Assembly: GCA_035652075.1 (NCBI GenBank) | Contig: DASREL010000107.1 | Location: 12,385 to 76,384, forward strand | DNA: 64,000 nucleotides | Reading direction: 5' to 3' | DNA from: Vicinamibacterales bacterium | GTDB taxonomy: Bacteria; Acidobacteriota; Vicinamibacteria; Vicinamibacterales; CAVVIG01 | Shown: piece after piece, positions 2,881-15,378 of the stretch | Position numbering within the stretch: the first letter of the stretch is position 1 | How the letters are laid out: each line of letters opens with the position of its first letter | Made by a program: the position numbers and the translations under genes | The notes under the pieces: generated by a model | The model's input: only the letters and a program-made list of their open reading frames with translations | What the model was told of the DNA's origin: nothing | The model's database searches: none

Positions 2881-2966
2881 CACGAAACACACGAAAACAC
2901 GAAACGCACGAAACACTCTTTGTACAAAAGACCTTTCGTGGGCTTCGTGCTTTCGTGGCTTTCGTG
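2881..2966. repeat. Heptamer-array hairpin: CACGAAA x4 followed by TTTCGTG x4
   Basis: CACGAAA starts at 2881, 2890, 2898 and 2907. TTTCGTG/CTTCGTG starts at 2934, 2943, 2951 and 2960. Both arms show spacings of 9, 8, 9. The apex is CTTTGTACAAAAG. Confidence 0.9.
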
Positions 2967-2975
2967 GCCAAGCCC

Positions 2976-4418
2976 ATGTACCAAGACCTGTCTGATTTCT
3001 TGGCGGATCTCGACCGCCGCAAGCTGCTCGCGCGCATCACCGATCCCGTCAGCCCCAATCTCGAGATCGCCGCGGTCACCGATCGCGTCTGCAAGATGCC
3101 TGGCGGCGGACCGGCGCTGCTGTTCGACGCGCCGACCGGCTACGACATCCCCGTTGCCTCGAACGTGTACGGCTCGCTGGAGCGCATGTGTCTCGCGCTG
3201 GGCGTGAAGGCGCTGGACGATCTCGCATCCGAGATCGACGAGTTGATGACGCCGCAGATGCCCGAAGGGATCATGGACGCGCTGAAGATGCTGCCGATGG
3301 TCGGCCGCCTGCGCGATCTGATGCCGAAGACGGTGAAGGATGCGCCCTGTCAGGAAGTCGTCGACAAGAACGCGCCCCTCGACTCGCTGCCGATCCTGAA
3401 ATGCTGGCCCGAGGACGGCGGGAAATACATCACGTTCCCGCTCGTGTTCACCAAAGATCCCGAAACCGGCATGCGCAACATCGGCACGTATCGCATGCAG
3501 GTGTACGACGGACGCTCGACGGGGATGCACTGGCAGCGTCACAAGGGCGGCGCGCAGCACTATCGCGTCGCCGAGCGCCTCGGGAAGCGACTCGACGTCG
3601 CGGTGGCGCTCAGCGCCGAACCGGCGTTGCCGTACTGCGCGACGGCGCCGATGCCGGAGGGACTCGACGAGCTGTTGCTCGGTGGATTCCTGTCGCGGAA
3701 GCGGATCGAGATGGTGAAGTGCGTCACCGTGGATCTCGAGGTCCCGGCGAGTTCGCACTTCGTCCTCGAGGGTTACGTCGAGCCGGGCGAACGCCGGCGC
3801 GAAGGGCCGTTCGGCGATCACACCGGCCTCTACTCGCAGCCCGACGACTTCCCGGTGTTCCACCTGACGTGCATCACGCGTCGGAAAAAGCCCACGTACC
3901 TGACGACGGTCGTCGGCGTGCCGCCGATGGAGGATTACTACCTCGGGCTGGCGAGCGAGCGGATCTTTCTGCCGATGATCAAGAAAACGCTGCCCGAGAT
4001 CGTCGACATGCATTTTCCAGCCGAGGGCATCTTCCACAATCTCGTGATCGTGTCGATCGACAAGCGGTATCCCGGTCACGCGCGCAAGATCATGAACGCG
4101 TTCTGGGGACTCGGTCAGCTGATGTTCTCGAAAACGATCATCGTCGTCGACAAGGATGTCGACGTCCACAATCTGAGCCAGGTCGCGTGGATCGTCGGCA
4201 CGCACTACGACCCGCTCCGCGACATCCAGATGACCAAAGGGCCGGTCGACGACCTCGACGATGCGGCGGATTTGCCGGCGTATGGAGGGAAGATGGGCGT
4301 CGACGCGACGAAGAAGTGGGCGAGCGAAGGGTACACGCGCAATTGGCCGGCTCGGGTCTCGACCACCGAAGCCGCCGGCCGCCGCGCCGCCGAAATCCTC
4401 TCTCGCCTGCGTATGTAG
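2976..4418 (+). CDS. UbiD-family decarboxylase (menaquinone-pathway type)
   Basis: MYQDLSDFLADLDRRKLLARI start, NVYGS, and GTYRMQV...HWQRHKGG motifs of UbiD. I prefer ATG 2976 over the track start at 2955, which lies inside the repeat. Confidence 0.85.
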   Translation: MYQDLSDFLADLDRRKLLARITDPVSPNLEIAAVTDRVCKMPGGGPALLFDAPTGYDIPVASNVYGSLERMCLALGVKALDDLASEIDELMTPQMPEGIMDALKMLPMVGRLRDLMPKTVKDAPCQEVVDKNAPLDSLPILKCWPEDGGKYITFPLVFTKDPETGMRNIGTYRMQVYDGRSTGMHWQRHKGGAQHYRVAERLGKRLDVAVALSAEPALPYCATAPMPEGLDELLLGGFLSRKRIEMVKCVTVDLEVPASSHFVLEGYVEPGERRREGPFGDHTGLYSQPDDFPVFHLTCITRRKKPTYLTTVVGVPPMEDYYLGLASERIFLPMIKKTLPEIVDMHFPAEGIFHNLVIVSIDKRYPGHARKIMNAFWGLGQLMFSKTIIVVDKDVDVHNLSQVAWIVGTHYDPLRDIQMTKGPVDDLDDAADLPAYGGKMGVDATKKWASEGYTRNWPARVSTTEAAGRRAAEILSRLRM

Positions 4419-4428
4419 TATTCGGCGT

Positions 4429-4935
4429 TCAGCCGGACCCGAACACGATCGTGTCGTGCTCGCCGGCCTCCGCAACCTGACCGGTCGCGACCGCGCGCAC
4501 GACGCCCCACAGGCGCACTAATCGACTCGACGGCACGTCCCAGTAATCCACGCGGTCGATCGTCACGGTAAAGATCGCGCTGTCCGGATCGTCGGCACCT
4601 TTCGGAAACCACGCGCGATACGTCGGGTTCCACATCTCATGCATCCGCGCGACATCGTGCGTCACCGAGGCGCGGCCGCTGACCGAGACGTAGCGATCGC
4701 CCTTGTCGCTGATGAAGGTGACGTTGACGCGCGGATCGCGGTGGACGTCGGTGGTCTTCTGTGACGAGAGGTGAGTGAGGAACACGAGCGAGGCATCCCG
4801 CTCGACGCGCTCCAGCAGCATCGGCCTCGCATGCAGCGCATCGTCGGTCGCGACGGTGGTGACCATCGCGACCGGGATGCCGTCGATCAGCCGCCGCAAC
4901 TCAGCGACTGCGCGATCCTGATCGCTTTGAACCAC
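4429..4935 (-). CDS. Pyridoxamine 5'-phosphate oxidase-like / general stress protein 26 family
   Basis: AELRRLIDGIPVAMVTTV...ALHARPM...VTFISDKGDRYVSVSG pattern of the GSP26/PNPOx-like fold. The start is set at in-frame GTG 4935. The longer track ORF would read through the upstream gene. Confidence 0.7.
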   Translation of the reverse strand: MVQSDQDRAVAELRRLIDGIPVAMVTTVATDDALHARPMLLERVERDASLVFLTHLSSQKTTDVHRDPRVNVTFISDKGDRYVSVSGRASVTHDVARMHEMWNPTYRAWFPKGADDPDSAIFTVTIDRVDYWDVPSSRLVRLWGVVRAVATGQVAEAGEHDTIVFGSG

Positions 4936-5587
4936 GTGAACCTTTTGAACCTCTTGAACCTCTTGAACCCCTTGAACCTGTATCGCTCGCCTGCGCCGGC
5001 ATGAACCGCCGCACGGCACCGCCGACGGTCTGGCCGACGAGCTGTGCGCCGCGCTGCAGCACGTCCATCGTCTTCAGCGTCTGGTCGTGCCATTCTTTCG
5101 ACGCCGCACGGTTGACGCCGCCCTCGGCGATCGCGGTCAATTTCTTGTCGGCGTTCTTCTCGTCCTTCAGGTTTTGTTCGAGCAGCTTCGCGACCTGTTT
5201 CTCGCCAAGGACGCTGGCGTACGTGCGGACGGTGCCGTAGGTGGCGATCTCGTAGTGCTCGACCTTTTGCGCGGCGGTGATCAGCATCGCATCGAGAAGC
5301 GCGCCAGGCTCGCCGCTTTCCATCAGCTCCTGGCCTTCTTCGAGCAGTCCTTCCATCGCCTCGCACGTCTTGCCCGATGCATCCTCTTTGAGCGCCTTCA
5401 GCGCCTGGCTGACGCGGCGTTCGTGCGTCTTGGTCTCCGCGAGATGTTTGCGAAACGCCGACTGCAGCTCCTTGCGCGAGGCCTTCTCGGCCATCATCGG
5501 CAACGCTTCGATGAGCTGCTGTTCAGCGTTCAATAAATCGTTCAGTTCCTCGACAAGATGTTCACGGAGTGACGCGACTGATGCCAT
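4901..5587 (-). CDS. DUF892 / YciE-YciF ferritin-like stress protein with a Gly-Ser-Arg repeat tail
   Basis: MASVASLREHLVEELNDLLNAEQQLIEALPMMAEKA and KVEHYEIATYGT motifs. GGAGG lies 7 nt upstream of ATG 5587. The tail GSRGSRGSRGSKGSRGSK is encoded by the 9-nt array. Confidence 0.8.
   Translation of the reverse strand: MASVASLREHLVEELNDLLNAEQQLIEALPMMAEKASRKELQSAFRKHLAETKTHERRVSQALKALKEDASGKTCEAMEGLLEEGQELMESGEPGALLDAMLITAAQKVEHYEIATYGTVRTYASVLGEKQVAKLLEQNLKDEKNADKKLTAIAEGGVNRAASKEWHDQTLKTMDVLQRGAQLVGQTVGGAVRRFMPAQASDTGSRGSRGSRGSKGSRGSKRSGSRSR
4926..4979. repeat. 9-nt tandem array (TTGAACCYN x6)
   Basis: tttgaacca cgtgaacct tttgaacct cttgaacct cttgaaccc cttgaacct. Direct repeats only. Confidence 0.9.
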
Positions 5588-5620
5588 CTCTGGACCTCCA
5601 GACGCTTTTGTGCACAATGA

Positions 5621-6094
5621 ATGCCACACAAGAGATGGTGCGTGGTGCGTAGTGCGGTGTGCGTGATGGCATTGTGCGCGGTTGCGTGTGGTGGGCCCGA
5701 CCGCGCGATTGGGGCGCGGCTCGCCTCGCCGGCGAAATTGACGTCAGAAGAAATTGCGCAGACGCTGCAGGCCGTGGGGCGCGCGATGCGCGGACGTCAG
5801 CCGCGGGTGAAGCAGGGCGCGGTTACGCGTCCGCTCGACGAGCGTGAACGCGCGCAGGTGTTCGACGTCCTGGCCGATGCGCGCGGACTCGAAGACGTCG
5901 GCATCAAGCAGAACGACGGCGTCACTGCGCGCGGACTCCGCGTGCCCGCCACGTCACCGCAATCGGAGATCGAAGCCACCGGCACCCTGTGGATTGACGT
6001 CAACACGCTACTCCCGCGCCGATACGACTTCGCGTACGCGATGCCGGGTTTCGGCGATTACACGCTGGACCTCACTTTCGAAAACACACCATGA
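5621..6094 (+). CDS. Hypothetical lipoprotein/secreted protein
   Basis: Hydrophobic N-terminus with a lipobox-like LCAVAC. GC3-rich frame. ATGA coupling to the next gene. No family recognised. Confidence 0.5.
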   Translation: MPHKRWCVVRSAVCVMALCAVACGGPDRAIGARLASPAKLTSEEIAQTLQAVGRAMRGRQPRVKQGAVTRPLDERERAQVFDVLADARGLEDVGIKQNDGVTARGLRVPATSPQSEIEATGTLWIDVNTLLPRRYDFAYAMPGFGDYTLDLTFENTP

Positions 6095-7041
6095 CAACAC
6101 GCTGGATTCCGCTCGCCGCTGTGGCCGTTGCCGTTTCCGTCTCAGTTGCAGTTGGCAGGGGTCAATCGCAACCGACGTCCTCTCACACGTTCAAAGAGAT
6201 CGCGCCTGGTGTGTACAGCGCCATCGGCAGCAGCACGTCGAACGCCGGATCGAATTCGGCGGTGATCGTCAATCAAGACGACGTGGTGATCGTCGATTCG
6301 CATATGACGCCCGACGCCGGACGCGCGTTGCTGCAGGACATCAAGACGATCACGAACAAGCCGGTGCGGTTCTTGATCAACACACATTTCCACTACGACC
6401 ACACCGACGGCAACCAGGCGTTTCCCAAGCCGATCGACATCATCGGCACCGAGTACACGCGCGCGCGGCTGAGCGCGCCGGACTACATGAAGAAGGGGAT
6501 GCTCGGGAATCTGTTGGCCGGCCAGAACACGTTGGCGCCGCAGTTGAAAGACCTGACGCCGATCGCGCCCAACGTCACGCTCGACGAGCGCATGACGCTG
6601 TGGCGCGGCGATCGCGAGATCCGGTTGCTGTATCTCGGTCGCGGCCACACCGGCGGCGACGTGGTCGTCTATTTGCCGAAAGAGAAAGTGCTGTGCACCG
6701 GAGATCTGCTCGTCAACCAAATCGCCAACTTGATCGACGGGTTCGTCGACGTCTGGCCGGACACACTCGAGAAGTTGAAACCCGTCGACTTCACCGACGT
6801 GATCCCAGGCCACGGCGAACCCTTCAAAGGCAAAGAGCGGATCGACTGGTTCCAGGCGTACCTGCGCGATCTCTGGAAGCAGGCCACGGCGCTGCACGAT
6901 AAGAAGGTTCCAGCCGCCGACGCGGCGAAGCAAATCGACATGTCCGCGCACAAAGCGCAGTACGCGAGCATCAACGGTCCAGGCGTCAACCCGGCCTACG
7001 TGTCACGTATGTATGAGGTGATGGAAAAGCGCGCGGAATAG
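6091..7041 (+). CDS. MBL-fold metallo-hydrolase, secreted
   Basis: Signal-like N-terminus. HFHYDHTDGN (HxHxDH) and GHG/HGEP metal ligands. Confidence 0.85.
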   Translation: MTTRWIPLAAVAVAVSVSVAVGRGQSQPTSSHTFKEIAPGVYSAIGSSTSNAGSNSAVIVNQDDVVIVDSHMTPDAGRALLQDIKTITNKPVRFLINTHFHYDHTDGNQAFPKPIDIIGTEYTRARLSAPDYMKKGMLGNLLAGQNTLAPQLKDLTPIAPNVTLDERMTLWRGDREIRLLYLGRGHTGGDVVVYLPKEKVLCTGDLLVNQIANLIDGFVDVWPDTLEKLKPVDFTDVIPGHGEPFKGKERIDWFQAYLRDLWKQATALHDKKVPAADAAKQIDMSAHKAQYASINGPGVNPAYVSRMYEVMEKRAE

Positions 7042-7052
7042 TCGTTGCATTC

Positions 7053-7613
7053 TTGAGCTGTATGGCCACCACAACTGCAACAAACGGGTTCGTGATGCGG
7101 CTCATTGGCGCACTCTCGCTCGACCCGCCAATCTACGAAGAGGTCGAAGCAGACCCGACAGCCACCGGTCAGGCGCTGACCGTCGTCTTGCTGTCGAGCC
7201 TCGCGACCGGCTTCGGTGCGCGTGGTTTCGGCGACATCACGCTTCAAAGCATCCTGTTCTTCACGACGCTCGCGCTGCTCGGGTGGGCCGCGTGGGCGCT
7301 CCTCACGTTCGAAATCGGGTATCGACTGATGCCGACGCCGCAAACGCGCGCCGATGTCGGCCAGTTACTGCGGACCACCGGATTTGCGGCGACGCCGGGT
7401 CTCTTCCGGATTTTCGGCATCATGCCGGGCGCCACGTGGCCGGTGTTCGCGGCGACGTCTGTGTGGATGCTCGCGGCCATGGTCGTCGGCGTCCGTCAGG
7501 CGCTCGACTACACGAGCACCGCGCGCGCAATTGCCGTCTGCGTCCTCGGGTGGGCGCTCGCGCTCGCGATTGGTCTCGTCATCGGCTTGTTCTTCGGACC
7601 GACGCTGTCGTAA
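7053..7613 (+). CDS. Yip1-family integral membrane protein
   Basis: Motif LSLDPPIYEEVEADPTATGQAL followed by about five hydrophobic helices. The start could instead be ATG 7062. Confidence 0.65.
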   Translation: MSCMATTTATNGFVMRLIGALSLDPPIYEEVEADPTATGQALTVVLLSSLATGFGARGFGDITLQSILFFTTLALLGWAAWALLTFEIGYRLMPTPQTRADVGQLLRTTGFAATPGLFRIFGIMPGATWPVFAATSVWMLAAMVVGVRQALDYTSTARAIAVCVLGWALALAIGLVIGLFFGPTLS

Positions 7614-7623
7614 GCTCGATCGG

Positions 7624-8466
7624 TTGGATCAAGAGCTGGTCACGCTCGCGGCGTCGCACGACATCATCAGCATCGGCATGCTCGCAGACGACGTTCGTCG
7701 TCGCCTCCACGGGACGAAGACGACGTTCGTCCGCGTCGCGACGGTTTCTGCCGAACCTGGCGCGCCGACCACGATTCCGCCCGCCGCCGGCGAAGTACGC
7801 ATCACCGGCGCGCCGTCGGCGCGATCGAGTGCCGCCGAGCGCGTGCGCGAAGTGATCGCGGCCGCGAGCGGCGTCGCCGTGTCCGCGTTTTCGCTCGCGG
7901 ATCTCGAATCGCTCGCCGCGACCGAACAGATCGCGCTGCGTGCGCTTCTCGAAGAGTTGCGCGGCGCCGGTCTGGAGCTGATCGCCGAGGCGCCCATCAA
8001 CAAGCTGCAAGACGCACGGCGCTCGATCGAAGCCCTGAACATCGCCGGCCTCGCGCTGGCGCGGCTGACGGTCGATCAGTCGCCGTCCGCGGATCCGTTG
8101 CCCCTGCTCAAAGGTGTGTCAGACCTCCAGCGTGACGTCGCCGTGATTCGCGCGTTTGCGCCGCTGCCGCGCCGCGTCAATCCCGCGGCGCCGTCGACCG
8201 GCTACGACGATGTCAAGCGGGTCGCGCTGGCGCGGATCGTGTGCGACAACATTCCGTCGATCCAGGTGGACTGGTCGCTGTATGGACCGAAACTCGCGCA
8301 GGTCGCCTTGACAGTCGGGGCCGACGACGTGGACGCGATCGCCGCCGAGGACGATCAATCGCAAGGGCACCGGCGGTCGCCGCTCGAAGAAATCCGCCGG
8401 AACATCCGCGCGGCCGGGTTCGAACCAGTGGAGCGCTCCGGCCGCTTCGACGCCATTTCCGAATGA
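7624..8466 (+). CDS. MqnC/MqnE-like protein lacking the radical-SAM CxxxCxxC cluster motif
   Basis: Collinear similarity to the downstream MqnC/E-type enzyme. For example, DDVKRVALARIVCDNIPSIQVDWSLYGPKLAQVALTVGADDVD matches IDYLRTLAIARIVLDNFDNLQASWVTQGGKVGQLSLAFGANDMG. The whole protein has only one Cys. The start is uncertain (TTG 7624 or ATG 7678). Confidence 0.6.
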   Translation: MDQELVTLAASHDIISIGMLADDVRRRLHGTKTTFVRVATVSAEPGAPTTIPPAAGEVRITGAPSARSSAAERVREVIAAASGVAVSAFSLADLESLAATEQIALRALLEELRGAGLELIAEAPINKLQDARRSIEALNIAGLALARLTVDQSPSADPLPLLKGVSDLQRDVAVIRAFAPLPRRVNPAAPSTGYDDVKRVALARIVCDNIPSIQVDWSLYGPKLAQVALTVGADDVDAIAAEDDQSQGHRRSPLEEIRRNIRAAGFEPVERSGRFDAISE

Positions 8467-9257
8467 ACACAGTCAGGGTTGGCGCGGTTGGCTATCTGAA
8501 TGCCCGTCCGCTCGTGTACGGGCTCGACCGATATCCGCGGTTCGATGTTCGCTACGACGTCCCGTCCGAGTGCGCGCGGCTGCTGCACGCGCACGAGACG
8601 GACATCGGCTTGATCCCATCGATCGAATATCTGCGCGGCGGTCCGTATCGCATCGTTCCGGATCTCGCGATCGCCTCGAGCGGTCCGGTGGCCTCGGTCG
8701 CGATCTTCACGACGAAACCGATCGCCGACGTGACGTCGATTGCGATGGACACGAGCTCGCGCACGAGCGTCGCGTTGACGCGCGTGCTCTGCGCGAAGCA
8801 TTTCAAGATCAACCCGACGTTCGAATCGCGTGGACCCGATCTCGACGACATGCTCGCGCACGCGGATGCCGCGTTGATTATTGGAGACAATGCGCTCTTC
8901 CAGCAGCCAGCCGCCAACAGCCAGCCGCTGGAGAAGATCGATCTCGGCGATGTCTGGACGCGCTTCACGGGCCTGCCGTTCGTGTACGCATTCTGGGCCG
9001 GTCGCGCCGGCGCGCTGGCCGCGGACGATGTGGAGGCGCTGCAGCACGCGCGGAACGAAGGGGAACAGCGGCCCGAGCAGCTCGCGCGCGAATTTCTCGA
9101 AGGGATGCCCGAGCGCTGGGACACCGGCGGCCGCTACCTACGGCACAATATCAAGTACCATCTCGGCGAGGACGAGCGAGCGGGCCTCGAGACGTTCTAT
9201 CGCTACGCGGCCGAAGTCGGCGTCGTCCCGAGCGCGAAGGTTCCGGAATTTTTTTAA
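8463..9257 (+). CDS. mqnA: Chorismate dehydratase MqnA (futalosine pathway)
   Basis: MNTVRVGAVGYLNARPLVYGL and IGLIPSIEY motifs. ATGA overlap with the upstream ORF. Confidence 0.85.
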   Translation: MNTVRVGAVGYLNARPLVYGLDRYPRFDVRYDVPSECARLLHAHETDIGLIPSIEYLRGGPYRIVPDLAIASSGPVASVAIFTTKPIADVTSIAMDTSSRTSVALTRVLCAKHFKINPTFESRGPDLDDMLAHADAALIIGDNALFQQPAANSQPLEKIDLGDVWTRFTGLPFVYAFWAGRAGALAADDVEALQHARNEGEQRPEQLAREFLEGMPERWDTGGRYLRHNIKYHLGEDERAGLETFYRYAAEVGVVPSAKVPEFF

Positions 9258-10462
9258 TGGTCGATCGGATCGCGGACAAGGTTCGGGCGGGCGAGCGGGT
9301 GAGCGCGGACGAAGCGCTCGCGCTCTATCGTCACGCGCCGACGGCGTTGCTGGGTCGGCTCGCCGACGGTATCCGCGCGCGCAAACATCCGGACGGCTAC
9401 GTCACCTACATCATCGACCGCAACGTCAACTACACGAACGTCTGCGTGGCGAAGTGCAACTTCTGCGCGTTCTACCGTCCGGTCGGATCGTCGGAAGGGT
9501 ACGTCCTCGGCTTCGATGAGTTGTTCCGCAAGATCGACGAGACGATCGCCGTCGGCGGTGTGCAGCTGCTGCTGCAGGGCGGACACAATCCCGACCTGCC
9601 GCTGTCGTGGTACGAAGATCTCTTTCGCGCCGTCAAGGAACGGTATCCGACATTCAAGCTGCACGCGCTCTCGCCGCCGGAAGTCATCCATCTCTCGCGG
9701 CTGACGCAACTGCCGGTTCCCGCGATCATCGATCGGCTGATCGCCGCCGGTCTGGACAGCATCCCCGGCGGCGGAGCGGAAATCCTCGTCGACCGCGTTC
9801 GCAAAGAGCTGCACTGTTACGGCAAAGCGACCGCCGACGAATGGCTCGACGTGATGCGCCACGCGCACAGCAAAGGTCTGCGCACGACGGCGACGATGAT
9901 GTACGGCACCGTCGAGACCGACGAAGAGCGGCTCGAACACTTGCTGCGGCTGCGCGCGCTGCAGGACGAGACCGGCGGCTTCACCGCGTTCATCACGTGG
10001 AGTTATCAACCGTCGAACACCGAGCTGGCCGGCAGCGAAGCGACCGGTATCGACTACCTCCGCACGCTCGCGATCGCGCGCATCGTCCTCGACAACTTCG
10101 ACAACCTGCAGGCCTCGTGGGTGACGCAAGGGGGGAAGGTCGGTCAGCTGAGCCTCGCGTTCGGCGCGAACGACATGGGCAGCGTGATGATCGAAGAGAA
10201 CGTCGTCCGCGCTGCCGGCGCGGCGTATTGCATGGACGAAGTCGAAATCGTCCGCAACGTCGAGGACGCCGGGTTCATCCCGAAGCGCCGCAACATGCAC
10301 TACGAGATCCTGGGCGATCCGATTTGCCGCGAGCGCAGCGTGCCGCGGATGCTGGAGCTTGCGACCGCACGCGCCGACGGCGACACCCATGTGCCGGACG
10401 AACTCGTCAACTACGAGGCGCGCAGCCGCGCCGGCAAGCAGCTCCGTATCATTCGCAATTGA
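9257..10462 (+). CDS. mqnC: Radical SAM menaquinone enzyme of the MqnC/MqnE family (MqnC-like by motif)
   Basis: VTYIIDRNVNYTNVCVAKCNFCAFYR contains CxxxCxxC. TAATG overlap with mqnA. I cannot separate MqnC from MqnE without an alignment. Confidence 0.75.
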   Translation: MVDRIADKVRAGERVSADEALALYRHAPTALLGRLADGIRARKHPDGYVTYIIDRNVNYTNVCVAKCNFCAFYRPVGSSEGYVLGFDELFRKIDETIAVGGVQLLLQGGHNPDLPLSWYEDLFRAVKERYPTFKLHALSPPEVIHLSRLTQLPVPAIIDRLIAAGLDSIPGGGAEILVDRVRKELHCYGKATADEWLDVMRHAHSKGLRTTATMMYGTVETDEERLEHLLRLRALQDETGGFTAFITWSYQPSNTELAGSEATGIDYLRTLAIARIVLDNFDNLQASWVTQGGKVGQLSLAFGANDMGSVMIEENVVRAAGAAYCMDEVEIVRNVEDAGFIPKRRNMHYEILGDPICRERSVPRMLELATARADGDTHVPDELVNYEARSRAGKQLRIIRN

Positions 10463-11670
10463 TCCGATACCGCGCCGCCTGGGTCCTGCCGATCAGCGAG
10501 CCGCCGATTCGTGACGGTTGGATCGCGATCGATCGCGGCCGCGTGATCGCCACCGGACGCCGCTCGGCAAACACCAGCGAGGCCGAAATCGATCTCGGAT
10601 ACGTGGCGGTGATGCCCGGTCTCGTCAACGCGCACACCCATCTCGAGCTGTCGCACATGCGCGACGAGGTGCCGCCCGCACCCGCCTTCGTCAGTTGGAT
10701 TCGCGGCGTCATGGAGGCGCGGCGCAAGCGGCCCGATCCGATGTCGACGGAAATCCTCGACGGCATCGACATTGGGATCGCGGAAGCGATCGCGACCGGG
10801 ACCGCGGTCGTCGGCGACATCAGCAACACGCTCGCGACGTTCGCGCCCTTGAGCCGCAGTCCCCTTGCCGGCGTCGTCTTCTACGAGTTGATTCGCTTCA
10901 ACGCGGCGGACCCGCAGGCGGTGGTGGAGCAGGCCGCCGACGCGATCGCGAAGCTACCGGCCACCGATCGTGTCCGCGCGAGCCTTGCCGCGCATGCGCC
11001 GTATTCGGTCGCGCCGCTGATGTTTCGCGCGATTCGCGAAGCGGTCGACCGCGATCCGTTCGCGCCGACGAGCGTGCACCTGTCCGAGTCGCAGGAAGAA
11101 GTGGAGTTCATACGAACCGGCGGCGGCCCGTGGCGCGCGCTGCTCGAAGCCATCGGCTCCTGGGATCCGAAGTGGGTGCCGCCGGGCGGATCCCCGGTCC
11201 AGTTCCTGGACGACTGCGGATTCCTCGACGGACGCGTGCTGGCCGTCCACGGCGTGCAGATGTCGGGGGCGGACCTCGAACGGCTGGCGAAGAAGGACGT
11301 GACGCTCGTCACCTGTCCGCGCAGCAACGGCCACACGGGCGCTGGCGCGCCGCCGATCGCCGATTTCTATCGCTCAGGCGTGAAAGTCGCCGTCGGGACC
11401 GACAGCCTCGCCAGCACACCTGACTTGAACGTCTTTGCCGAGGTCGCGACGATGCGTGCGTTGGCGCCGGGAGTGCCAGCAGCGGCGCTCCTCGAGAGCG
11501 CGACGATCGTCGGCGCGCGGGCGCTCGGCTTCGACGCCGATTACGGCACGATCGACGCGGGGAAGCGGGCGCGGCTGCTCGCGGTCGACATCCCGATCGA
11601 GGTCGATGATGTGGAAGAATATTTGGTGAGCGGGATAGAGCAGCGGCAGGTGCGATGGATAGACGGATAG
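10459..11670 (+). CDS. Amidohydrolase-superfamily deaminase (candidate aminodeoxyfutalosine deaminase)
   Basis: TTG start gives MIRYRAAWVLP...MPGLVNAHTHLELS (HxH metal motif), then HLSES and TDSLAS. TTGA overlap with the preceding gene. The specific function is inferred from context. Confidence 0.7.
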   Translation: MIRYRAAWVLPISEPPIRDGWIAIDRGRVIATGRRSANTSEAEIDLGYVAVMPGLVNAHTHLELSHMRDEVPPAPAFVSWIRGVMEARRKRPDPMSTEILDGIDIGIAEAIATGTAVVGDISNTLATFAPLSRSPLAGVVFYELIRFNAADPQAVVEQAADAIAKLPATDRVRASLAAHAPYSVAPLMFRAIREAVDRDPFAPTSVHLSESQEEVEFIRTGGGPWRALLEAIGSWDPKWVPPGGSPVQFLDDCGFLDGRVLAVHGVQMSGADLERLAKKDVTLVTCPRSNGHTGAGAPPIADFYRSGVKVAVGTDSLASTPDLNVFAEVATMRALAPGVPAAALLESATIVGARALGFDADYGTIDAGKRARLLAVDIPIEVDDVEEYLVSGIEQRQVRWIDG

Positions 11671-11681
11671 ACGAGAACAGT

Positions 11682-11822
11682 GGTGCAGAAGTGCACGGTG
11701 CACAGGTGCATGGTGCTTTGGTGCACGGTGCACCGGTGCAGGGCGCACCCGTGCACGCTGCACGCAGCACCCTGCACCCTGCACGCAGCACCCTGCACCC
11801 TGCACGCGGCACCCTGCACCAC
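11682..11822. repeat. GTGCAC-core array hairpin (about 18 units, period 7-8)
   Basis: The left half is GGTGCAN units and the right half is NTGCACC units, for example ctgcaccctgcacgcagcaccctgcaccctgcacg. It starts 12 nt after the amidohydrolase stop. Confidence 0.9.
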
Positions 11823-12665
11823 CTCCGCACGTACGCGTCTTTCGTCCGCATCAGCCACTCCGTCTTCGCGCTGCCGTTTGCGCTGGCCGGCGCGCTGCTC
11901 GCGGCCCAGCAATCGCCGTTGACGCTGCGCACGGTGATCTGGATTCTGGTCGCAATGGTTGGCGCGCGCAGTGCCGCGATGGGGTTCAACCGCCTCGTCG
12001 ACGCGCGCATCGACGCGTTGAACCCGCGGACCGCGAATCGCGAGCTGCCGCGCGGCGCGATGACCGCGCGCGAGGCGACCGCGTTCGTCACGATTGCATC
12101 CGCGGTGTTCGTCGTCGCGGCGTGGCAACTCAATCCGATCTGTTTCGCGCTGTCGCCGGTGGCGCTCGCGATCGTGTTCTGGTATTCGCTCGCGAAGCGC
12201 TACACGACATGGACGCAGCTGTTTCTCGGCCTCGCGATGGCGGTCGCGCCGGTTGGCGGATGGCTCGCGGTCGGCGGTCGCGGCGGCTGGCAGCCGTGGC
12301 TGCTCGCGCTCGCGATCGGCACGTGGGTCGGCGGGTTCGACGTTCTCTACGCCTGCCAGGATCTCGATTTCGATCGCGCGCACGGATTGCGATCCATTCC
12401 CGTCCGCTTCGGCGTGCGGCAGTCACTCGCGATTTCGCGATGCATGCACGTCGTCGCCGTCCTGTGTCTCGCAGCGCTGGGTGTCGTGACGACGCTCGGT
12501 CCGATCTACTTCGGCGGCGTCGCGATCGTCGCCGCGCTGCTGGTGTACGAGCAGTCGCTCGTCAGCGCCGAGGATCTCTCGCAGGTCAAACGGGCGTTCG
12601 ATCTGAACGGCTACGTCGGCATCCTCTACTTGCTCGTCCTCGTCGTCGCGTTATATGCACGATGA
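11751..12665 (+). CDS. UbiA-family prenyltransferase (MqnP-type)
   Basis: LRTYASFVRISHSVFALPFALAGALL and GFNRLVDARIDALNPRTANRELP (NxxxDxxxD-type motif), followed by multiple TM helices. The start is ambiguous. All in-frame ATG/GTG candidates (11655 to 11751) lie in or before the repeat. Confidence 0.8.
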   Translation: MHAARSTLHPARSTLHPARGTLHHLRTYASFVRISHSVFALPFALAGALLAAQQSPLTLRTVIWILVAMVGARSAAMGFNRLVDARIDALNPRTANRELPRGAMTAREATAFVTIASAVFVVAAWQLNPICFALSPVALAIVFWYSLAKRYTTWTQLFLGLAMAVAPVGGWLAVGGRGGWQPWLLALAIGTWVGGFDVLYACQDLDFDRAHGLRSIPVRFGVRQSLAISRCMHVVAVLCLAALGVVTTLGPIYFGGVAIVAALLVYEQSLVSAEDLSQVKRAFDLNGYVGILYLLVLVVALYAR

Positions 12666-13377
12666 CGGCACCGACGTCTCGAAGACGCCGGCGCGCATCG
12701 CGGGGATGTTCGATGCGATCGCCGGCCGCTACGACTTCCTCAATCATTTTCTGAGCGGAGGGATCGATCGCCGCTGGCGCGCCCGCGCGATCCGGTCGCT
12801 CGCGTTGACCGGGCGCGAAACGGTTCTCGACGTCTGCACCGGCACTGGCGACCTGGCGATCGAGGCGATGCAGGCGGCGCCGTCGGCCGCCCGGGTCGTC
12901 GGCGTCGATTTCGCCGGCGCCATGCTCGCGATTGGTCACGACAAATTGCGGCGTGCTGGCGCCGTGGAGCGCATCACGTTACTGCGCGGCGATGCGATGC
13001 GCATCCCGTTGGCCGATCGATCGGTCGACGGCGTCACCGTCGGTTTTGGCATTCGCAACGTGGCCGATGTGCCGGCGGCGTGCCGCGAGATGTTGCGCGT
13101 GTTGAAACCGGGTGGACGGATCGCGATTCTCGAATTTGCCGTGCCGACGACGCCGGTGTTCCGCGACGTGTTCGGGTGGTACATGCATACCGTGTTGCCA
13201 CGACTCGGACGTGCGATTTCGCGACACCAGGGCGCATACAAATACTTGCAAGCGTCGATCGACGCGTGGCTCACTCCTGCTGAGTTCGTGACAATTCTTC
13301 GACAATCTGGATTTGTCGAGATTCATGCAGTCCCACTGACCCTTGGCGCCGTCTTTCTTTATGAGGCTCGACGGTAA
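12655..13377 (+). CDS. ubiE: Demethylmenaquinone/ubiquinone C-methyltransferase UbiE/MenG
   Basis: MFDAIAGRYDFLNHFLSGGIDRRWR and VLDVCTGTGDLA SAM-binding motif. Confidence 0.9.
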   Translation: MHDDGTDVSKTPARIAGMFDAIAGRYDFLNHFLSGGIDRRWRARAIRSLALTGRETVLDVCTGTGDLAIEAMQAAPSAARVVGVDFAGAMLAIGHDKLRRAGAVERITLLRGDAMRIPLADRSVDGVTVGFGIRNVADVPAACREMLRVLKPGGRIAILEFAVPTTPVFRDVFGWYMHTVLPRLGRAISRHQGAYKYLQASIDAWLTPAEFVTILRQSGFVEIHAVPLTLGAVFLYEARR

Positions 13378-13407
13378 TCCGACTGCTATACTGCTTGTAA
13401 CTCCTTC

Positions 13408-14382
13408 ATGTATTTCGATTTCGAGGATTATCACCCCGACATAGCCGTCGTCGGGCGCGCACTGACGCGGCTGGAAGTCGTCCTGCTGACGATCATCTTC
13501 CATCTGCTGGTGGTGATTGCGATTCTCCTCGCGCCGCGCTACTTTCCGGAACTGTTCGTACCCGCTGAGAGGCCGACACAACTCGCGCTCGCGCCGCAGC
13601 AGGATCACACGCAGTTCGTGTTCGTGGCGCCGCGTATCGAACGACCAGTACCGAAGCCGCCGCCGAATGCGGAGCCGTCGGACCTGAACCGCGAAGCGCG
13701 GACGCCATTCAAAGCGCCGACTCCGCAGAATCCGCTGCCATTCAATCGCGGCAATTCACCGGAGCGCGTGGATGCGCCTGCGGAGCGGCCGCAGGTCGCG
13801 AGGGGACAGGGACCGCAGCCGGAACCGCAGCAGATGGCGCGCAACAGTCAACCGAATCAGCCGCAAATCGACAGTTCGGTGCCGCGCATGTCGGAGTCGA
13901 GCAGCTCGCTGCAGTTGCCGTCGAATCGATCGACGCAGCCGTCGAACACCAACGGCCGATCGGCGACGCCAGGCGGAAATCTCGGCGATGCGCTGCGCAA
14001 CCTGCAGCGATACGTGCAGAACGAGCAGTTCGAGAATCCTGGCGGCGGCGGTCAGTTCGGTCCTGAGATCCAGTTCGATACGAAGGGCGTCGAGTTCGGA
14101 CCGTGGATTCGACGCTTCATCGCGCAGGTCAAGCGCAACTGGTTCATCCCGTACGCCGCGATGTCGCAGCGGGGCCACGTGGTGATCTCGTTCAACATTC
14201 ACAAAGACGGCTCGATCACCGATCTGAACGTGGTCGGTCCGTCAGGGATCGATGCGTTCAACAGCGCCGCGTTCGGTGCGTTGTCCGGCTCGAACCCGAC
14301 GCAGCCGCTGCCGCCGGAATATCCGGCCGACAAAGCCTTCTTCACGGTCACCTTCTACTACAACGAACAACCACCACGGTGA
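13408..14382 (+). CDS. tonB: Energy transducer TonB family protein
   Basis: N-terminal TM anchor, a Pro-rich spacer, and a C-terminal TonB domain (HVVISFNIHKDGSITDLNVVGPSGIDAFNSAA). Confidence 0.85.
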   Translation: MYFDFEDYHPDIAVVGRALTRLEVVLLTIIFHLLVVIAILLAPRYFPELFVPAERPTQLALAPQQDHTQFVFVAPRIERPVPKPPPNAEPSDLNREARTPFKAPTPQNPLPFNRGNSPERVDAPAERPQVARGQGPQPEPQQMARNSQPNQPQIDSSVPRMSESSSSLQLPSNRSTQPSNTNGRSATPGGNLGDALRNLQRYVQNEQFENPGGGGQFGPEIQFDTKGVEFGPWIRRFIAQVKRNWFIPYAAMSQRGHVVISFNIHKDGSITDLNVVGPSGIDAFNSAAFGALSGSNPTQPLPPEYPADKAFFTVTFYYNEQPPR

Positions 14383-14456
14383 CGCGCAGCCAGCGGCTCG
14401 GGTTGCTGATCCTCGCGATCGCGTTCGTCCTGTACGTGCTGATCCGTGTCCACTAA
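14379..14456 (+). CDS. Possible 25-aa hydrophobic micro-protein
   Basis: A GTG overlapping the tonB stop (GGTGA) gives VTRSQRLGLLILAIAFVLYVLIRVH, a single TM helix. It overlaps the miaA start. Support comes only from frame and hydrophobicity. Confidence 0.25.
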   Translation: MTRSQRLGLLILAIAFVLYVLIRVH

Positions 14457-15378
14457 GCGGCTGGTCGCCGTCCTCGGTCCGACGGCGACGGGGAAGAGCG
14501 CGCTGGGCATCGCGCTCGCGCAGAAGTACGACGGCGAGATCATCAACTGCGATTCGACGGCCGTGTATCGCGGGTTCGATATCGGCACCGACAAGGTCCT
14601 GCCGCAGGATCGCCACGGCATTCCGCATCACCTGATCGACATCGTCGATCCGACCGAGGACTACACCGCGGCGCAGTTTGCGCGCGACGCGGCGGCGGTG
14701 ATTCGCGAACTGCACGCGCGTGGCACGCTGCCGATCCTCGTTGGCGGCACCGGGTTCTATTTTCGTGCGCTGACGCGCGGGCTGTTTCCCGGTCCCGGCC
14801 GCAACGCCGAACTGCGCGAGCGCCTCGAAGGGATTGCGGCGCGGCGCGGCGTCGAGTTTCTGCATCGCATGCTCGCGCGCGTCGATCGCGAGTCCGCGGT
14901 CCGCATCCAGTCGCGCGATCTGAAGCGCATCGTTCGCGCGCTCGAAGTGTTCTTCCTCACCGGCGCGCCGCTGACCTCGCACTTCGCACTGACCGCGTCA
15001 CCGATTCCGGATGTCGATGTGATCGCGATCGGCCTGACGATGCCGGCGGCCGTCATTTCCGAGCGGGTGACGCGTCGCGTCGACGTGCAGTTCGAGCGCG
15101 GGTTGCTCGACGAGATACGGACACTGCTCGCGCGTGGGATTCCGGAGAGCGCACGTCCGTTTGGTGGCCTGGTGTATCGGCAGGCGCTCGAGCACCTGCA
15201 CGGTGTGCGGGACGCTGCGGCCACGCGCGCGCTCATCGCGCAGGAGAACCGCCGGTATGCTCGGCGGCAGTTGATCTGGTTTCGCAAAGAGCCTAACCTA
15301 ACGTGGTTCGACGGTCCCGGCGATTCGCCGTCCACCATCGCGGCCGTCACGCGCTTCATCGATGAACGCACAAGCTAA
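14446..15378 (+). CDS. miaA: tRNA dimethylallyltransferase MiaA
   Basis: GPTATGKS P-loop, IINCDSTAVYRGFDIGTDK, and HHLID. Confidence 0.9.
   Translation: MSTKRLVAVLGPTATGKSALGIALAQKYDGEIINCDSTAVYRGFDIGTDKVLPQDRHGIPHHLIDIVDPTEDYTAAQFARDAAAVIRELHARGTLPILVGGTGFYFRALTRGLFPGPGRNAELRERLEGIAARRGVEFLHRMLARVDRESAVRIQSRDLKRIVRALEVFFLTGAPLTSHFALTASPIPDVDVIAIGLTMPAAVISERVTRRVDVQFERGLLDEIRTLLARGIPESARPFGGLVYRQALEHLHGVRDAAATRALIAQENRRYARRQLIWFRKEPNLTWFDGPGDSPSTIAAVTRFIDERTS

What the first reader, a model, noticed from the sequence alone, without database searches (positions are those of the whole stretch)
7624..8466. MqnC/MqnE paralog without the radical-SAM cysteine triad, translationally coupled to mqnA
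The ORF is collinear with the neighbouring bona fide radical SAM enzyme (9257-10462), from the N-terminal helix (MLADDVRRRLHG versus LGRLADGIRARKHP) to the C-terminal barrel motifs. Where the enzyme has [15 protein letters not shown], this protein has FVRVATVSAEPGAP. It contains a single Cys overall, so it cannot bind the [4Fe-4S]-SAM cluster in the canonical way. Its stop overlaps the mqnA start (ATGA), which argues that it is expressed with the pathway rather than being a decaying pseudogene. The frame is intact and GC3-rich. It could be a scaffold or substrate-channelling subunit, or a repurposed TIM-barrel enzyme.
Basis: partly seen in the sequence, partly recalled or inferred. Interest (0 to 1): 0.72.

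Follow-up and report, generated by a model that had tools for sequence, protein, structure and literature searches.

The report
Cluster-less MqnC-like barrel beside mqnA
A soil acidobacterium's vitamin-K2 (menaquinone) operon carries a well-conserved copy of a radical-SAM enzyme that has lost its iron-sulfur site, so it is probably an undescribed non-radical component of the pathway.

Summary
Window 7624-8466 (+) encodes a 280-aa protein ("X") that is collinear over its whole length with the neighbouring MqnC (hhalign probability 99.7 %). Its high-confidence model (pLDDT 96.6) best matches the MqnE crystal structure (TM 0.82). X has no CX3CX2C motif. About 30 residues are missing where MqnC has its cluster loop, no Cys is conserved, and most close homologues have none. 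Its stop overlaps the mqnA start (ATGA).

X is not a pseudogene:
- dN/dS is 0.20-0.34, the same as mqnA.
- Thousands of ~280-310-aa homologues exist, down to 35 % identity.
- All named ones come from Vicinamibacterales or other Acidobacteriota.
- X lies directly upstream of mqnA in 82 of 82 informative loci.

Conservation is concentrated in strands β6-β8, the N-terminal helix, β1 and β2. The former SAM-binding strands β3-β5 have drifted.

My reading is that X is an obligate, non-radical futalosine-pathway protein. I favour a dead-paralogue partner or intermediate-binding subunit (about 40 %). A repurposed enzyme for a missing step, MqnB-like or MqnD-like, is nearly as likely (about 30 %). I could not check whether these genomes also encode true MqnE, MqnB or MqnD. 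No NCBIfam model reaches its cut-off, I found no paper describing the family, and IMG mislabels it "aminodeoxyfutalosine synthase".

The parts
7624..8466 (+). CDS of X: a 280-aa cluster-less paralogue of MqnC/MqnE with a full (βα)8-type barrel. TTG start, TGA stop.
   Evidence: The start is set by homologue N-termini.
7738..7791 (+). Residues 39-56 (ATVSAEPGAPTTIPPAAG). This short linker replaces the roughly 48-residue MqnC segment that carries CX3CX2C and helix α1.
   Evidence: Profile-profile alignment. The segment is variable across the family.
7792..7800 (+). E57-V58-R59 on strand β2. E57 is nearly invariant and R59 invariant; both are specific to X (MqnC has V-Q-L here).
8149..8436 (+). 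Residues 176-271, the most conserved sector (β6-β8 and the CofH_C region). Motifs: FAPLPR, TGYDDV, IQVDW, YGPKLAQVAL.(F/V)GADD.D, G.RR.
   Evidence: Pfam PF19288 covers residues 193-275. Conservation map. Alignment to MqnC.
8463..8466 (+). ATGA: the mqnA start codon overlaps the X stop codon.
   Evidence: The same 4-nt overlap occurs in 49 of 88 orthologous junctions and a 1-nt overlap in 9.
8463..9257 (+). mqnA (chorismate dehydratase).
   Evidence: PF02621 at 5e-58. PDB 7ahr, 2nxo and 6o9a chorismate dehydratases.
9257..10462 (+). mqnC, a genuine radical SAM enzyme (cyclic dehypoxanthinyl futalosine synthase) with a lineage-conserved tail of about 45 aa at the C-terminus.
   Evidence: TIGR03699 483.8 bits (cut-off 428); PF04055 and PF19288.
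10459..11670 (+). Amidohydrolase, a homologue of aminofutalosine deaminase. Its TTG start overlaps the mqnC stop.
   Evidence: PF01979. NF006269 scores 137 bits, below its cut-off.
11655..12665 (+). UbiA-family prenyltransferase (MqnP-like). The true start is probably downstream of the tandem repeats at 11681-11820.
12655..13377 (+). UbiE/MenG-type demethylmenaquinone methyltransferase.
2955..4418 (+). UbiD-family decarboxylase (MqnL-like). In some more distant relatives (L007-L011) it lies directly upstream of X.

Best explanation
**Shown.** X is a maintained protein of about 280 aa. It descends from the MqnC/MqnE branch of the CofH-type radical SAM enzymes and keeps the complete barrel. It has lost the cluster-binding loop, all cysteines and the recognisable SAM-binding motifs, so it cannot carry out radical SAM chemistry. 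It has been inherited vertically as a fixed member of the futalosine operon of Vicinamibacteria-type Acidobacteriota, always immediately upstream of mqnA and tightly packed with mqnA, mqnC, the deaminase homologue, mqnP and menG. Selection has preserved one contiguous half of the barrel: β6, β7, β8, the N-terminal helix, β1 and β2. That half includes residues shared with MqnC (T34, R204, Q214, W217, K223, Q226, D235). It also includes a new set of nearly invariant charged residues (R37, E57, R59, Y194, D196, D216, D237, R250, R251). The former SAM-binding strands β3-β5 have drifted.

**Inferred.** The retained half is the substrate-side or family-specific part of the ancestral enzyme. I infer that X still binds a carboxylate-bearing futalosine intermediate (3-enolpyruvyl-benzoate, futalosine/DHFL or cyclic DHFL).

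**Mechanism I favour (about 40 %).** X is a dead-paralogue subunit of the 'prozyme' type, made in stoichiometric amounts with MqnA and MqnC. It would associate with its active paralogue and/or with MqnA, hold or hand over the intermediate, and be required for efficient flux, without catalysing a reaction itself.
For: - **Ancestry and fold:**
- **Loss of cluster and SAM motifs:**. In the alignment MqnC QGGHNP pairs with X ITGAPS, GGGAEIL with IAEAPIN, and MMYGTVET with RLTVDQSP.
- **Purifying selection:** dN/dS is 0.20-0.34, against 0.26-0.32 for mqnA and 0.25-0.30 for the amidohydrolase.
- **Family size and divergence:** 171 clusters at 50 % identity with E<=1e-30, and more than 6000 clusters at 90 %.
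- **Strict synteny:** the same gene order holds even at 35-45 % identity, and X lies upstream of mqnA in 82 of 82 loci with enough upstream sequence. 58 of 88 junctions overlap.
- **Sector-wise conservation:**
- **Possible MqnC origin:** the X-family HMM scores the co-resident MqnC at 94-105 bits. That would fit a local duplication of mqnC, and paralogues of that kind often keep their ancestral oligomer interface (general knowledge).
- **A reason for a hand-off partner:** MqnA holds its product tightly enough to co-crystallise with 3-EPB made in E. coli (abstract of PMC9672406, seen).
Against: - No physical-interaction evidence was obtainable. The apparent X-MqnA fusion proteins are frameshift artefacts, and no multimer prediction was available.
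- Stop-start overlap is a property of every junction in the operon, so it does not single out MqnA as a partner.
- Universal retention and about nine new nearly invariant charged residues fit a catalytic site at least as well as an interface.
- The oligomeric state of MqnC and MqnE is not known to me.
- TIGRFAM scores do not resolve whether the ancestor was MqnC or MqnE.
- The presence of a true MqnE, MqnB and MqnD in these genomes was not testable.
Confidence: 0.4

Rival explanations
1. Repurposed enzyme. X has become a cofactor-independent acid/base catalyst that uses the ancestral substrate pocket. It would perform one of the futalosine steps missing from the operon: hydrolysis of futalosine or aminofutalosine to DHFL (the MqnB step), or conversion of cyclic DHFL to 1,4-dihydroxy-6-naphthoate (the MqnD step).
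For: - The operon holds steps 1, 3, 5 and the late steps, but no MqnB, MqnD or MqnE. None occurs in the 64-kb window or in the 17 loci of up to about 21 kb (L001-L003, L005, L007-L019) from 13 distinct places.
- X is retained in 82 of 82 loci.
- X has its own nearly invariant polar residues on the catalytic face of the barrel: D216 at the end of β7, T192/Y194/D196 in the β6-α6 loop, R250/R251 in the β8-α8 loop, and E57/R59 on β2.
- dN/dS is like that of the pathway enzymes.
- A descendant of MqnC or MqnE would already bind exactly these substrates or products (inference).
Against: - No sequence or fold similarity to any hydrolase or lyase family beyond generic TIM-barrel hits.
- E122 on β4 is not invariant.
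- Other Acidobacteria do encode MqnD (Zhi et al. 2014, PMC3914697, table read), so MqnD may simply lie elsewhere in these genomes.
- mqn genes are commonly scattered (general knowledge).
- I know of no precedent for a radical SAM barrel turned into a non-radical enzyme.
Confidence: 0.3
2. Ligand sensor, regulator or unrelated role. X binds a small molecule (chorismate, a pathway intermediate or a nucleoside) to regulate flux, or it has a function unrelated to menaquinone and sits next to mqnA only through vertical inheritance of gene order.
For: All loci come from one lineage with very conserved local synteny (BamA-OmpH-LpxD/A-LpxI-GFO...MiaA). Adjacency could therefore partly reflect inheritance rather than functional coupling.
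Against: - X is homologous to two enzymes of this very pathway.
- It lies inside a run of overlapping mqn genes.
- The flanking genes change between sublineages while X-mqnA stays fixed. UbiD, GFO, or MBL plus Yip1 can each lie upstream.
Confidence: 0.12
3. X is still a radical SAM enzyme, for example the lineage's MqnE as IMG annotates it, using a non-canonical cluster site.
For: IMG names many members 'aminodeoxyfutalosine synthase'. No MqnE is seen nearby.
Against: - 93 of 120 close homologues have zero Cys, and no Cys column is conserved.
- The cluster loop is deleted.
- There is no PF04055 hit.
- TIGR03700 scores 80.7 bits against a cut-off of 434.55.
- The SAM-binding motifs are not retained.
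Confidence: 0.02
4. X is a decaying pseudogene or a chance ORF in GC-rich DNA.
For: High-GC DNA gives long spurious ORFs (many are listed). The N-terminus is about 20 aa shorter than in distant members.
Against: - dN/dS is 0.20-0.34.
- Intact orthologues exist down to 35 % identity.
- The AF2 model has pLDDT 96.6.
- The codon-position GC pattern is that of a coding sequence.
- The only broken copies are frameshifted assemblies.
Confidence: 0.01

Closest known systems
MqnC, cyclic dehypoxanthinyl futalosine synthase (TIGR03699); the copy at window 9257-10462
   Same: Collinear over about 300 profile columns, from the N-terminal helix (LGxLAD..R.R.H) to the C-terminal CofH_C region. Shared motifs are TG.D, ARI..DN, Q..W, G.K..Q..L..GA.D and AGF.P..R. 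Both lie in the same operon. The X-family HMM scores MqnC at 94-105 bits.
   Different: X is about 120 aa shorter. It has no CX3CX2C loop or helix α1 and no GGE-type or GxIxGxxE-type SAM motifs. It has no Cys. It scores 88 bits against a cut-off of 428. It has its own nearly invariant residues: R37, E57, R59, Y194, D196, D216, D237, R250, R251.
MqnE, aminofutalosine synthase (TIGR03700; PDB 6xi9/6xig, Pedobacter heparinus)
   Same: Best structural match (Foldseek E about 1e-15, TM 0.81-0.82 normalised to X). TIGR03700 scores as well as TIGR03699 across all 79 diverse members. X shares the DD.D motif after β8 and AQ in helix α7.
   Different: 16 % identity. X has no cluster, and 80.7 bits against a cut-off of 434.55. 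It cannot generate the 5'-deoxyadenosyl radical that the MqnE reaction requires.
Full-barrel radical SAM enzymes: ThiH, HydG, HydE, BioB, PylB, CofH
   Same: Same (βα)8 architecture. They are the next-best fold matches, with TM 0.52-0.67.
   Different: All of them bind a [4Fe-4S] cluster and SAM. X has neither site.
Dead-paralogue activators ('prozymes', e.g. the trypanosomatid AdoMetDC prozyme) and paralogue pairs such as GlucD/GlucDRP (from my own knowledge; a concept only)
   Same: A catalytically disabled duplicate is kept under selection next to its active paralogue.
   Different: No evidence yet that X forms a heteromer. X also shows newly fixed polar residues, which is not typical of a purely structural partner.

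Membership tests
Radical SAM superfamily (PF04055) | CX3CX2C (or variant) cysteine triad ligating a [4Fe-4S] cluster after β1 | tested here: not met
   X has a single, non-conserved Cys. 93 of 120 close homologues have none, and 0 of 150 representatives have the motif. The loop is deleted in the profile alignment.
Radical SAM superfamily (PF04055) | Match to the Pfam Radical_SAM model | tested here: not met
   Only PF19288 is reported at E<=0.01. The neighbouring MqnC scores 74.9 bits on PF04055.
Radical SAM superfamily (PF04055) | SAM-binding motifs (GGE after β2, ribose motif on β4, GxIxGxxE on β5) | tested here: not met
   In the alignment MqnC QGGHNP pairs with X ITGAPS, GGGAEIL with IAEAPIN, and MMYGTVET with RLTVDQSP. 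Strands β3-β5 are the least conserved part of X. This rests on alignment only, not on a binding test.
Radical SAM superfamily (PF04055) | Partial or full (βα) TIM-barrel fold of the radical SAM type | tested here: met
   The AF2 model has pLDDT 96.6 and 8 strands. The top 24 PDB matches are all radical SAM enzymes, with MqnE first at TM 0.82.
MqnC equivalog (TIGR03699) | Score at or above the curated cut-off of 428.1 bits | tested here: not met
   88 bits.
MqnE equivalog (TIGR03700) | Score at or above the curated cut-off of 434.55 bits | tested here: not met
   80.7 bits. The IMG name 'aminodeoxyfutalosine synthase' is therefore not justified.
CofH/MqnC C-terminal region (PF19288) | Score at or above the gathering cut-off of 27 bits | tested here: met
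   42.9 bits over residues 193-275. The domain is also precomputed for all listed homologues.
Futalosine-pathway gene set | Conserved co-localisation with mqn genes | tested here: met
   X lies directly upstream of mqnA in 82 of 82 loci. The order X-mqnA-mqnC-amidohydrolase-mqnP-(ubiX)-ubiE holds in every locus that extends far enough downstream.
Futalosine-pathway gene set | Demonstrated requirement for, or activity in, menaquinone synthesis | not testable with these tools
   Needs genetics or biochemistry.
Pseudogene | Frameshifts or stops in orthologues, or relaxed selection (dN/dS near 1) | tested here: not met
   dN/dS is 0.20-0.34. Orthologues are intact. Broken copies occur only in error-prone assemblies where the neighbouring genes are broken too.
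Pseudoenzyme or 'prozyme' partner | Physical complex with the active paralogue or a neighbouring enzyme | not testable with these tools
   No multimer prediction was available. The apparent fusions are artefacts.

The most novel reading that the evidence does not exclude
X is a catalytically active, cofactor-free enzyme that evolved from a radical SAM barrel. It would supply a futalosine-pathway step for which these Acidobacteriota lack the canonical enzyme: futalosine or aminofutalosine hydrolysis in place of MqnB, or cyclic-DHFL cleavage in place of MqnD. To my knowledge that would be the first documented conversion of a radical SAM scaffold into a non-radical enzyme, and a new enzyme of menaquinone biosynthesis.
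Probability: 0.28. Interest if true: 0.82.

Novelty: new variant of a known kind. Interest (0 to 1): 0.58.

Why it matters
Vicinamibacteria (Acidobacteria subdivision 6) are, from my own knowledge, among the most abundant soil bacteria. Acidobacteria make menaquinone by the futalosine pathway (Zhi et al. 2014), which is also an antibiotic target in other bacteria.

A universally retained extra protein in this lineage's mqn operon means the textbook gene list for the pathway is incomplete here.

For radical SAM enzymology, X is a clean natural example of a barrel that has lost cluster and SAM binding yet stays under strong selection. It offers a way to study which half of the fold carries substrate specificity and how pseudoenzymes or new activities arise from radical enzymes.

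There is also a practical consequence. Automated pipelines label X as MqnE or ThiH, so metabolic reconstructions of these organisms may count a radical SAM step that this protein cannot perform.

Tried and rejected
- **Genome scan with X alone.** I therefore could not survey complete genomes for MqnE, MqnB or MqnD.
- **Metagenome scan with an MqnA alignment.** It was meant to show what lies upstream of mqnA in other phyla. The best 80 loci were all from the same lineage (at least 50 % identity). It gave strong co-occurrence statistics but no information on positional homology outside the lineage.
- **First AF2 run with 33 close homologues.** The model was poor (pLDDT 67.7). It was superseded by the run with 79 diverse representatives.
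- **Rosetta-stone evidence.** The long hits P0170 and P0250 look like X-MqnA fusions but contain out-of-frame stretches, so they are frameshift artefacts.
- **Extending the window.** A look-up of the terminal DnaJ-like protein found no record.
- **Promoter and terminator scan of 4400-14500.** Nothing above the shuffled expectation.
- **Conservation on the two barrel faces.** A crude comparison of the catalytic face with the opposite face did not discriminate. Only the sector pattern, β6-β8 plus β1-β2 against β3-β5, is clear.
- **Ancestry.** TIGRFAM scores are equal for MqnC and MqnE. The higher score of the co-resident MqnC may reflect shared lineage and a truncated MqnE sequence, so ancestry is left open.
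- **Literature.** Seven searches (plus reading in 46, 64, 75) found no description of a cluster-less MqnC/MqnE paralogue.
- **Alternative metal ligands.** None is conserved.
Full report
**1. What is at 7624-8466**

The reading frame is open from 7354. The upstream Yip1-domain gene ends at 7613, and the N-termini of homologues place the start at TTG 7624. The stop is TGA 8464-8466, which gives a 280-aa protein that I call X. GC by codon position is 0.73/0.50/0.81, the same coding signature as neighbouring genes in this 65 % GC window.

The X stop overlaps the start of the next gene (GAATGAAC). That gene is MqnA: PF02621 scores 5e-58, and the best solved relatives are chorismate dehydratases at 3e-29. 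The following gene (9257-10462) is a genuine MqnC, with TIGR03699 at 483.8 bits against a cut-off of 428, plus PF04055 and PF19288.

After mqnC come an amidohydrolase related to aminofutalosine deaminases, a UbiA/MqnP-type prenyltransferase and a UbiE/MenG methyltransferase. A UbiD-type decarboxylase lies 3 kb upstream. Every junction from X to ubiE overlaps: ATGA, TAATG, TTGA, then overlaps of 16 and 11 nt. The coupling to mqnA is therefore real but not specific to that junction.

**2. Is X a paralogue of MqnC/MqnE?**

Yes, over its full length.

- A single-sequence search finds only the C-terminal third: CofH_C at 5e-11, TIGR03699 at 5e-25, TIGR03700 at 9e-23, and BLASTP against the neighbouring MqnC at 1e-13.
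- A profile of 79 diverse family members aligns with a profile of lineage MqnC sequences at probability 99.7 % and E 1.7e-25, over 300 columns. The alignment starts at the N-terminal helices (X ...LGMLAD..RRRRHG..TTFVRV against MqnC ...LGRLAD.VRARKHP..VTYII) and runs to the last strand.
- With the diverse alignment AlphaFold2 gives a very confident model (pLDDT 96.6, pTM 0.93) with eight β-strands alternating with helices.
- Foldseek places MqnE of Pedobacter heparinus (6xi9/6xig) first, at E about 1e-15 and TM 0.81-0.82. PylB, ThiH, HydE, BioB and HydG follow. These are the full-barrel radical SAM enzymes.
- All 79 members hit the MqnC and MqnE models equally well (best E-values 5e-25 and 8e-25), and CofH less well. 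The X-family HMM scores the co-resident MqnC higher (94-105 bits) than the aligned part of P. heparinus MqnE (57 bits). That comparison is confounded by lineage and truncation, so I leave the parent unresolved, with a slight lean to MqnC.

**3. What has been lost**

- In the profile alignment the MqnC segment [25 protein letters not shown]...AVGG (about 48 residues: cluster loop and helix α1) is replaced in X by about 18 variable residues.
- X has one Cys (C207). Of 120 close homologues, 93 have none. None of the 150 representatives at 50 % identity contains CX3CX2C.
- No alignment column has Cys in 25 % or more of members. The only His column that does is H29 (58 %), which has a counterpart in the MqnC RKHP motif.
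- No PF04055 match is reported.
- The MqnC stretches corresponding to the GGE-type, ribose and GxIxGxxE SAM-binding motifs align with unrelated residues in X. Strands β3-β5, the core of the SAM site, are the least conserved part of the family.

X therefore cannot perform reductive SAM cleavage in any known way.

**4. Is it a live gene?**

- The big-database search gave more than 6000 hits at 90 % clustering. The 120 listed were all 280-305 aa and 72-100 % identical.
- The exhaustive representative search found 171 clusters at 50 % identity with E<=1e-30. These are typically 285-312 aa and go down to about 35-40 % identity.
- Nei-Gojobori dN/dS between the window and four orthologous loci is 0.20-0.34 for X. 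The values are 0.26-0.32 for mqnA, 0.25-0.30 for the amidohydrolase, 0.29-0.34 for ubiE and 0.10-0.14 for mqnC. dS is 0.7-1.3, so these ratios are approximate.
- The few disrupted copies occur in assemblies where the neighbouring genes are also frameshifted.

The pseudogene reading is rejected.

**5. Distribution and context**

Every hit that carries an organism name is Vicinamibacterales, Acidobacteria gp6 or Acidobacteriota, including marine MAGs.

I examined 17 loci of up to about 21 kb (L001-L003, L005, L007-L019), from 13 distinct places. They include members only 35-50 % identical to X. In every one that extends far enough downstream, the order is X-mqnA-mqnC-amidohydrolase-ubiA(mqnP)-(ubiX)-ubiE, followed by TonB-MiaA. 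BamA-OmpH-LpxD/A-LpxI-GFO lies upstream. The gene immediately upstream of X varies: GFO, UbiD, or MBL plus Yip1 in the window's close relatives. The X-mqnA pair is constant.

A metagenome scan seeded with MqnA returned 80 more loci of this lineage. Over all non-redundant loci with at least 250 bp upstream of mqnA, 82 of 82 have X directly upstream. 58 of 88 junctions overlap (49 by 4 nt and 9 by 1 nt).

No MqnE, no second PF02621 protein (MqnD) and no PF01048 protein (MqnB) occurs in the 64-kb window or in the loci. I could not examine whole genomes.

**6. What has been kept**

Across the 79 diverse members the invariant or nearly invariant positions are:

- G18, A21, R25 (N-terminal helix);
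- T34, R37, V38 (β1);
- E57, R59 (β2);
- P180, L181 (β6);
- T192, G193, Y194, D196, A201, R204 (β6-α6 loop and α6);
- Q214, D216, W217 (β7);
- G221, K223-L229 (α7);
- G232, A233, D235, D237 (β8);
- G248, R250, R251 (β8-α8 loop);
- R271.

Because β8 neighbours β1 in a closed barrel, they form one contiguous sector, β6-β7-β8-β1-β2.

About half of these residues are shared with MqnC (T34, R204, Q214, W217, K223, Q226, D235). They presumably reflect the ancestral, family-specific half of the active site. The rest (R37, E57, R59, Y194, D196, D216, D237, R250, R251) are specific to X.

The many fixed Arg/Lys and Asp/Glu residues suggest binding of an anionic ligand. Every early futalosine intermediate carries one or two carboxylates. 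A salt-bridge network or a protein interface would give the same pattern, and I could not inspect model coordinates to decide.

**7. How it most likely works**

Shown: X is a cluster-free, SAM-motif-free barrel from the MqnC/MqnE clade, under purifying selection, and a fixed member of this lineage's futalosine operon. Everything beyond that is inferred.

I favour a dead-paralogue subunit at about 40 %. It would be produced stoichiometrically with MqnA and MqnC. It would associate with its active paralogue and/or MqnA and hold or hand over a carboxylate-bearing intermediate. Two considerations support this. Duplicates of oligomeric enzymes often remain as heteromeric partners. MqnA binds its product 3-EPB tightly enough to co-crystallise with it (abstract of PMC9672406), so a hand-off partner is plausible.

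Nearly as likely, at about 30 %, is a repurposed non-radical enzyme that uses the inherited pocket to carry out the MqnB or MqnD step. Both steps are absent from the otherwise comprehensive operon. Universal retention and the newly fixed acidic and basic residues on the catalytic face fit this reading well. Against it, other Acidobacteria encode MqnD (PMC3914697), and mqn genes are often scattered.

A regulatory, sensor or unrelated role gets about 12 %. A non-canonical radical enzyme and a pseudogene are effectively excluded.

**8. Comparison with what is known, and novelty**

X passes the domain-level test for PF19288. It fails every defining test for the radical SAM superfamily except the fold, and it scores far below the MqnC and MqnE equivalog cut-offs. 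No NCBIfam model reaches its cut-off for X. NCBI calls members "hypothetical protein", and IMG calls them "aminodeoxyfutalosine synthase" or "ThiH", which the evidence contradicts. Seven literature searches found no description of such a protein.

I therefore classify X as a new variant of a known kind: a cluster-less derivative of a radical SAM enzyme kept inside the parent pathway. It would interest radical-SAM and quinone-biosynthesis specialists. The interest is tempered by the narrow taxonomic range and by the lack of any functional test.

**9. Limits**

I made no whole-genome census for MqnE, MqnB or MqnD and had no multimer prediction, model coordinates or expression data. dS is close to saturation. 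The taxonomic range is inferred from the minority of hits that carry names and from shared synteny.

Noticed in passing
window 11681-11820: Tandem repeats with 7-, 15-, 21- and 30-nt periods (units GTGCACG and GCACCCT). They lie just after the amidohydrolase stop and inside the first ~55 codons of the ORF called for the UbiA/MqnP gene. Homology to MqnP starts only around residue 53, so the real start is probably downstream and the repeat may be intergenic.
   Followed up: partly
window 10319-10462 (MqnC residues 355-401): The lineage's MqnC carries a tail of about 45 aa at the C-terminus, beyond the end of the TIGR03699 model. Several positions are invariant across the seven divergent MqnC sequences aligned. 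Its function is unknown, and it could be a docking element.
   Followed up: no
homologues of window 7624-8466 (P0005-P0120, P0337-P0431): IMG/JGI automatic annotation names this cluster-less protein 'aminodeoxyfutalosine synthase' or '2-iminoacetate synthase ThiH'. Pathway reconstructions for these Acidobacteriota may therefore count a false MqnE.
   Followed up: partly
window 4901-7613, compared with L007-L019: The DUF892, metallo-β-lactamase and Yip1 genes lie between ubiD and X in the window. Close relatives (L001-L006) share the MBL and Yip1 genes. In more distant members UbiD or the GFO oxidoreductase abuts X. X in the window's subgroup is about 20 aa shorter at the N-terminus than in distant members, whose extra helix aligns with the first helix of MqnC.
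   Followed up: partly
P0211 and P0234 (representatives of the X family): Some family members carry long Ser/Ala-rich low-complexity insertions: in the β6-α6 loop (P0211) or in the β1-β2 linker and after α2 (P0234). The conserved motifs around them are intact.
   Followed up: no
window 41059-43518 (-): An 820-aa ORF with a coding-like GC3 pattern has no Pfam match at E<=1e-5. It lies next to a large outer-membrane β-barrel (CarboxypepD_reg plus OMP_b-brl_4) gene.
   Followed up: no
L005 (contig CAWCDQ010000045.1): UbiD, MBL, the amidohydrolase, MqnP and UbiE each appear split into two frames in this long-read MAG. These look like assembly indel errors rather than real pseudogenes.
   Followed up: no
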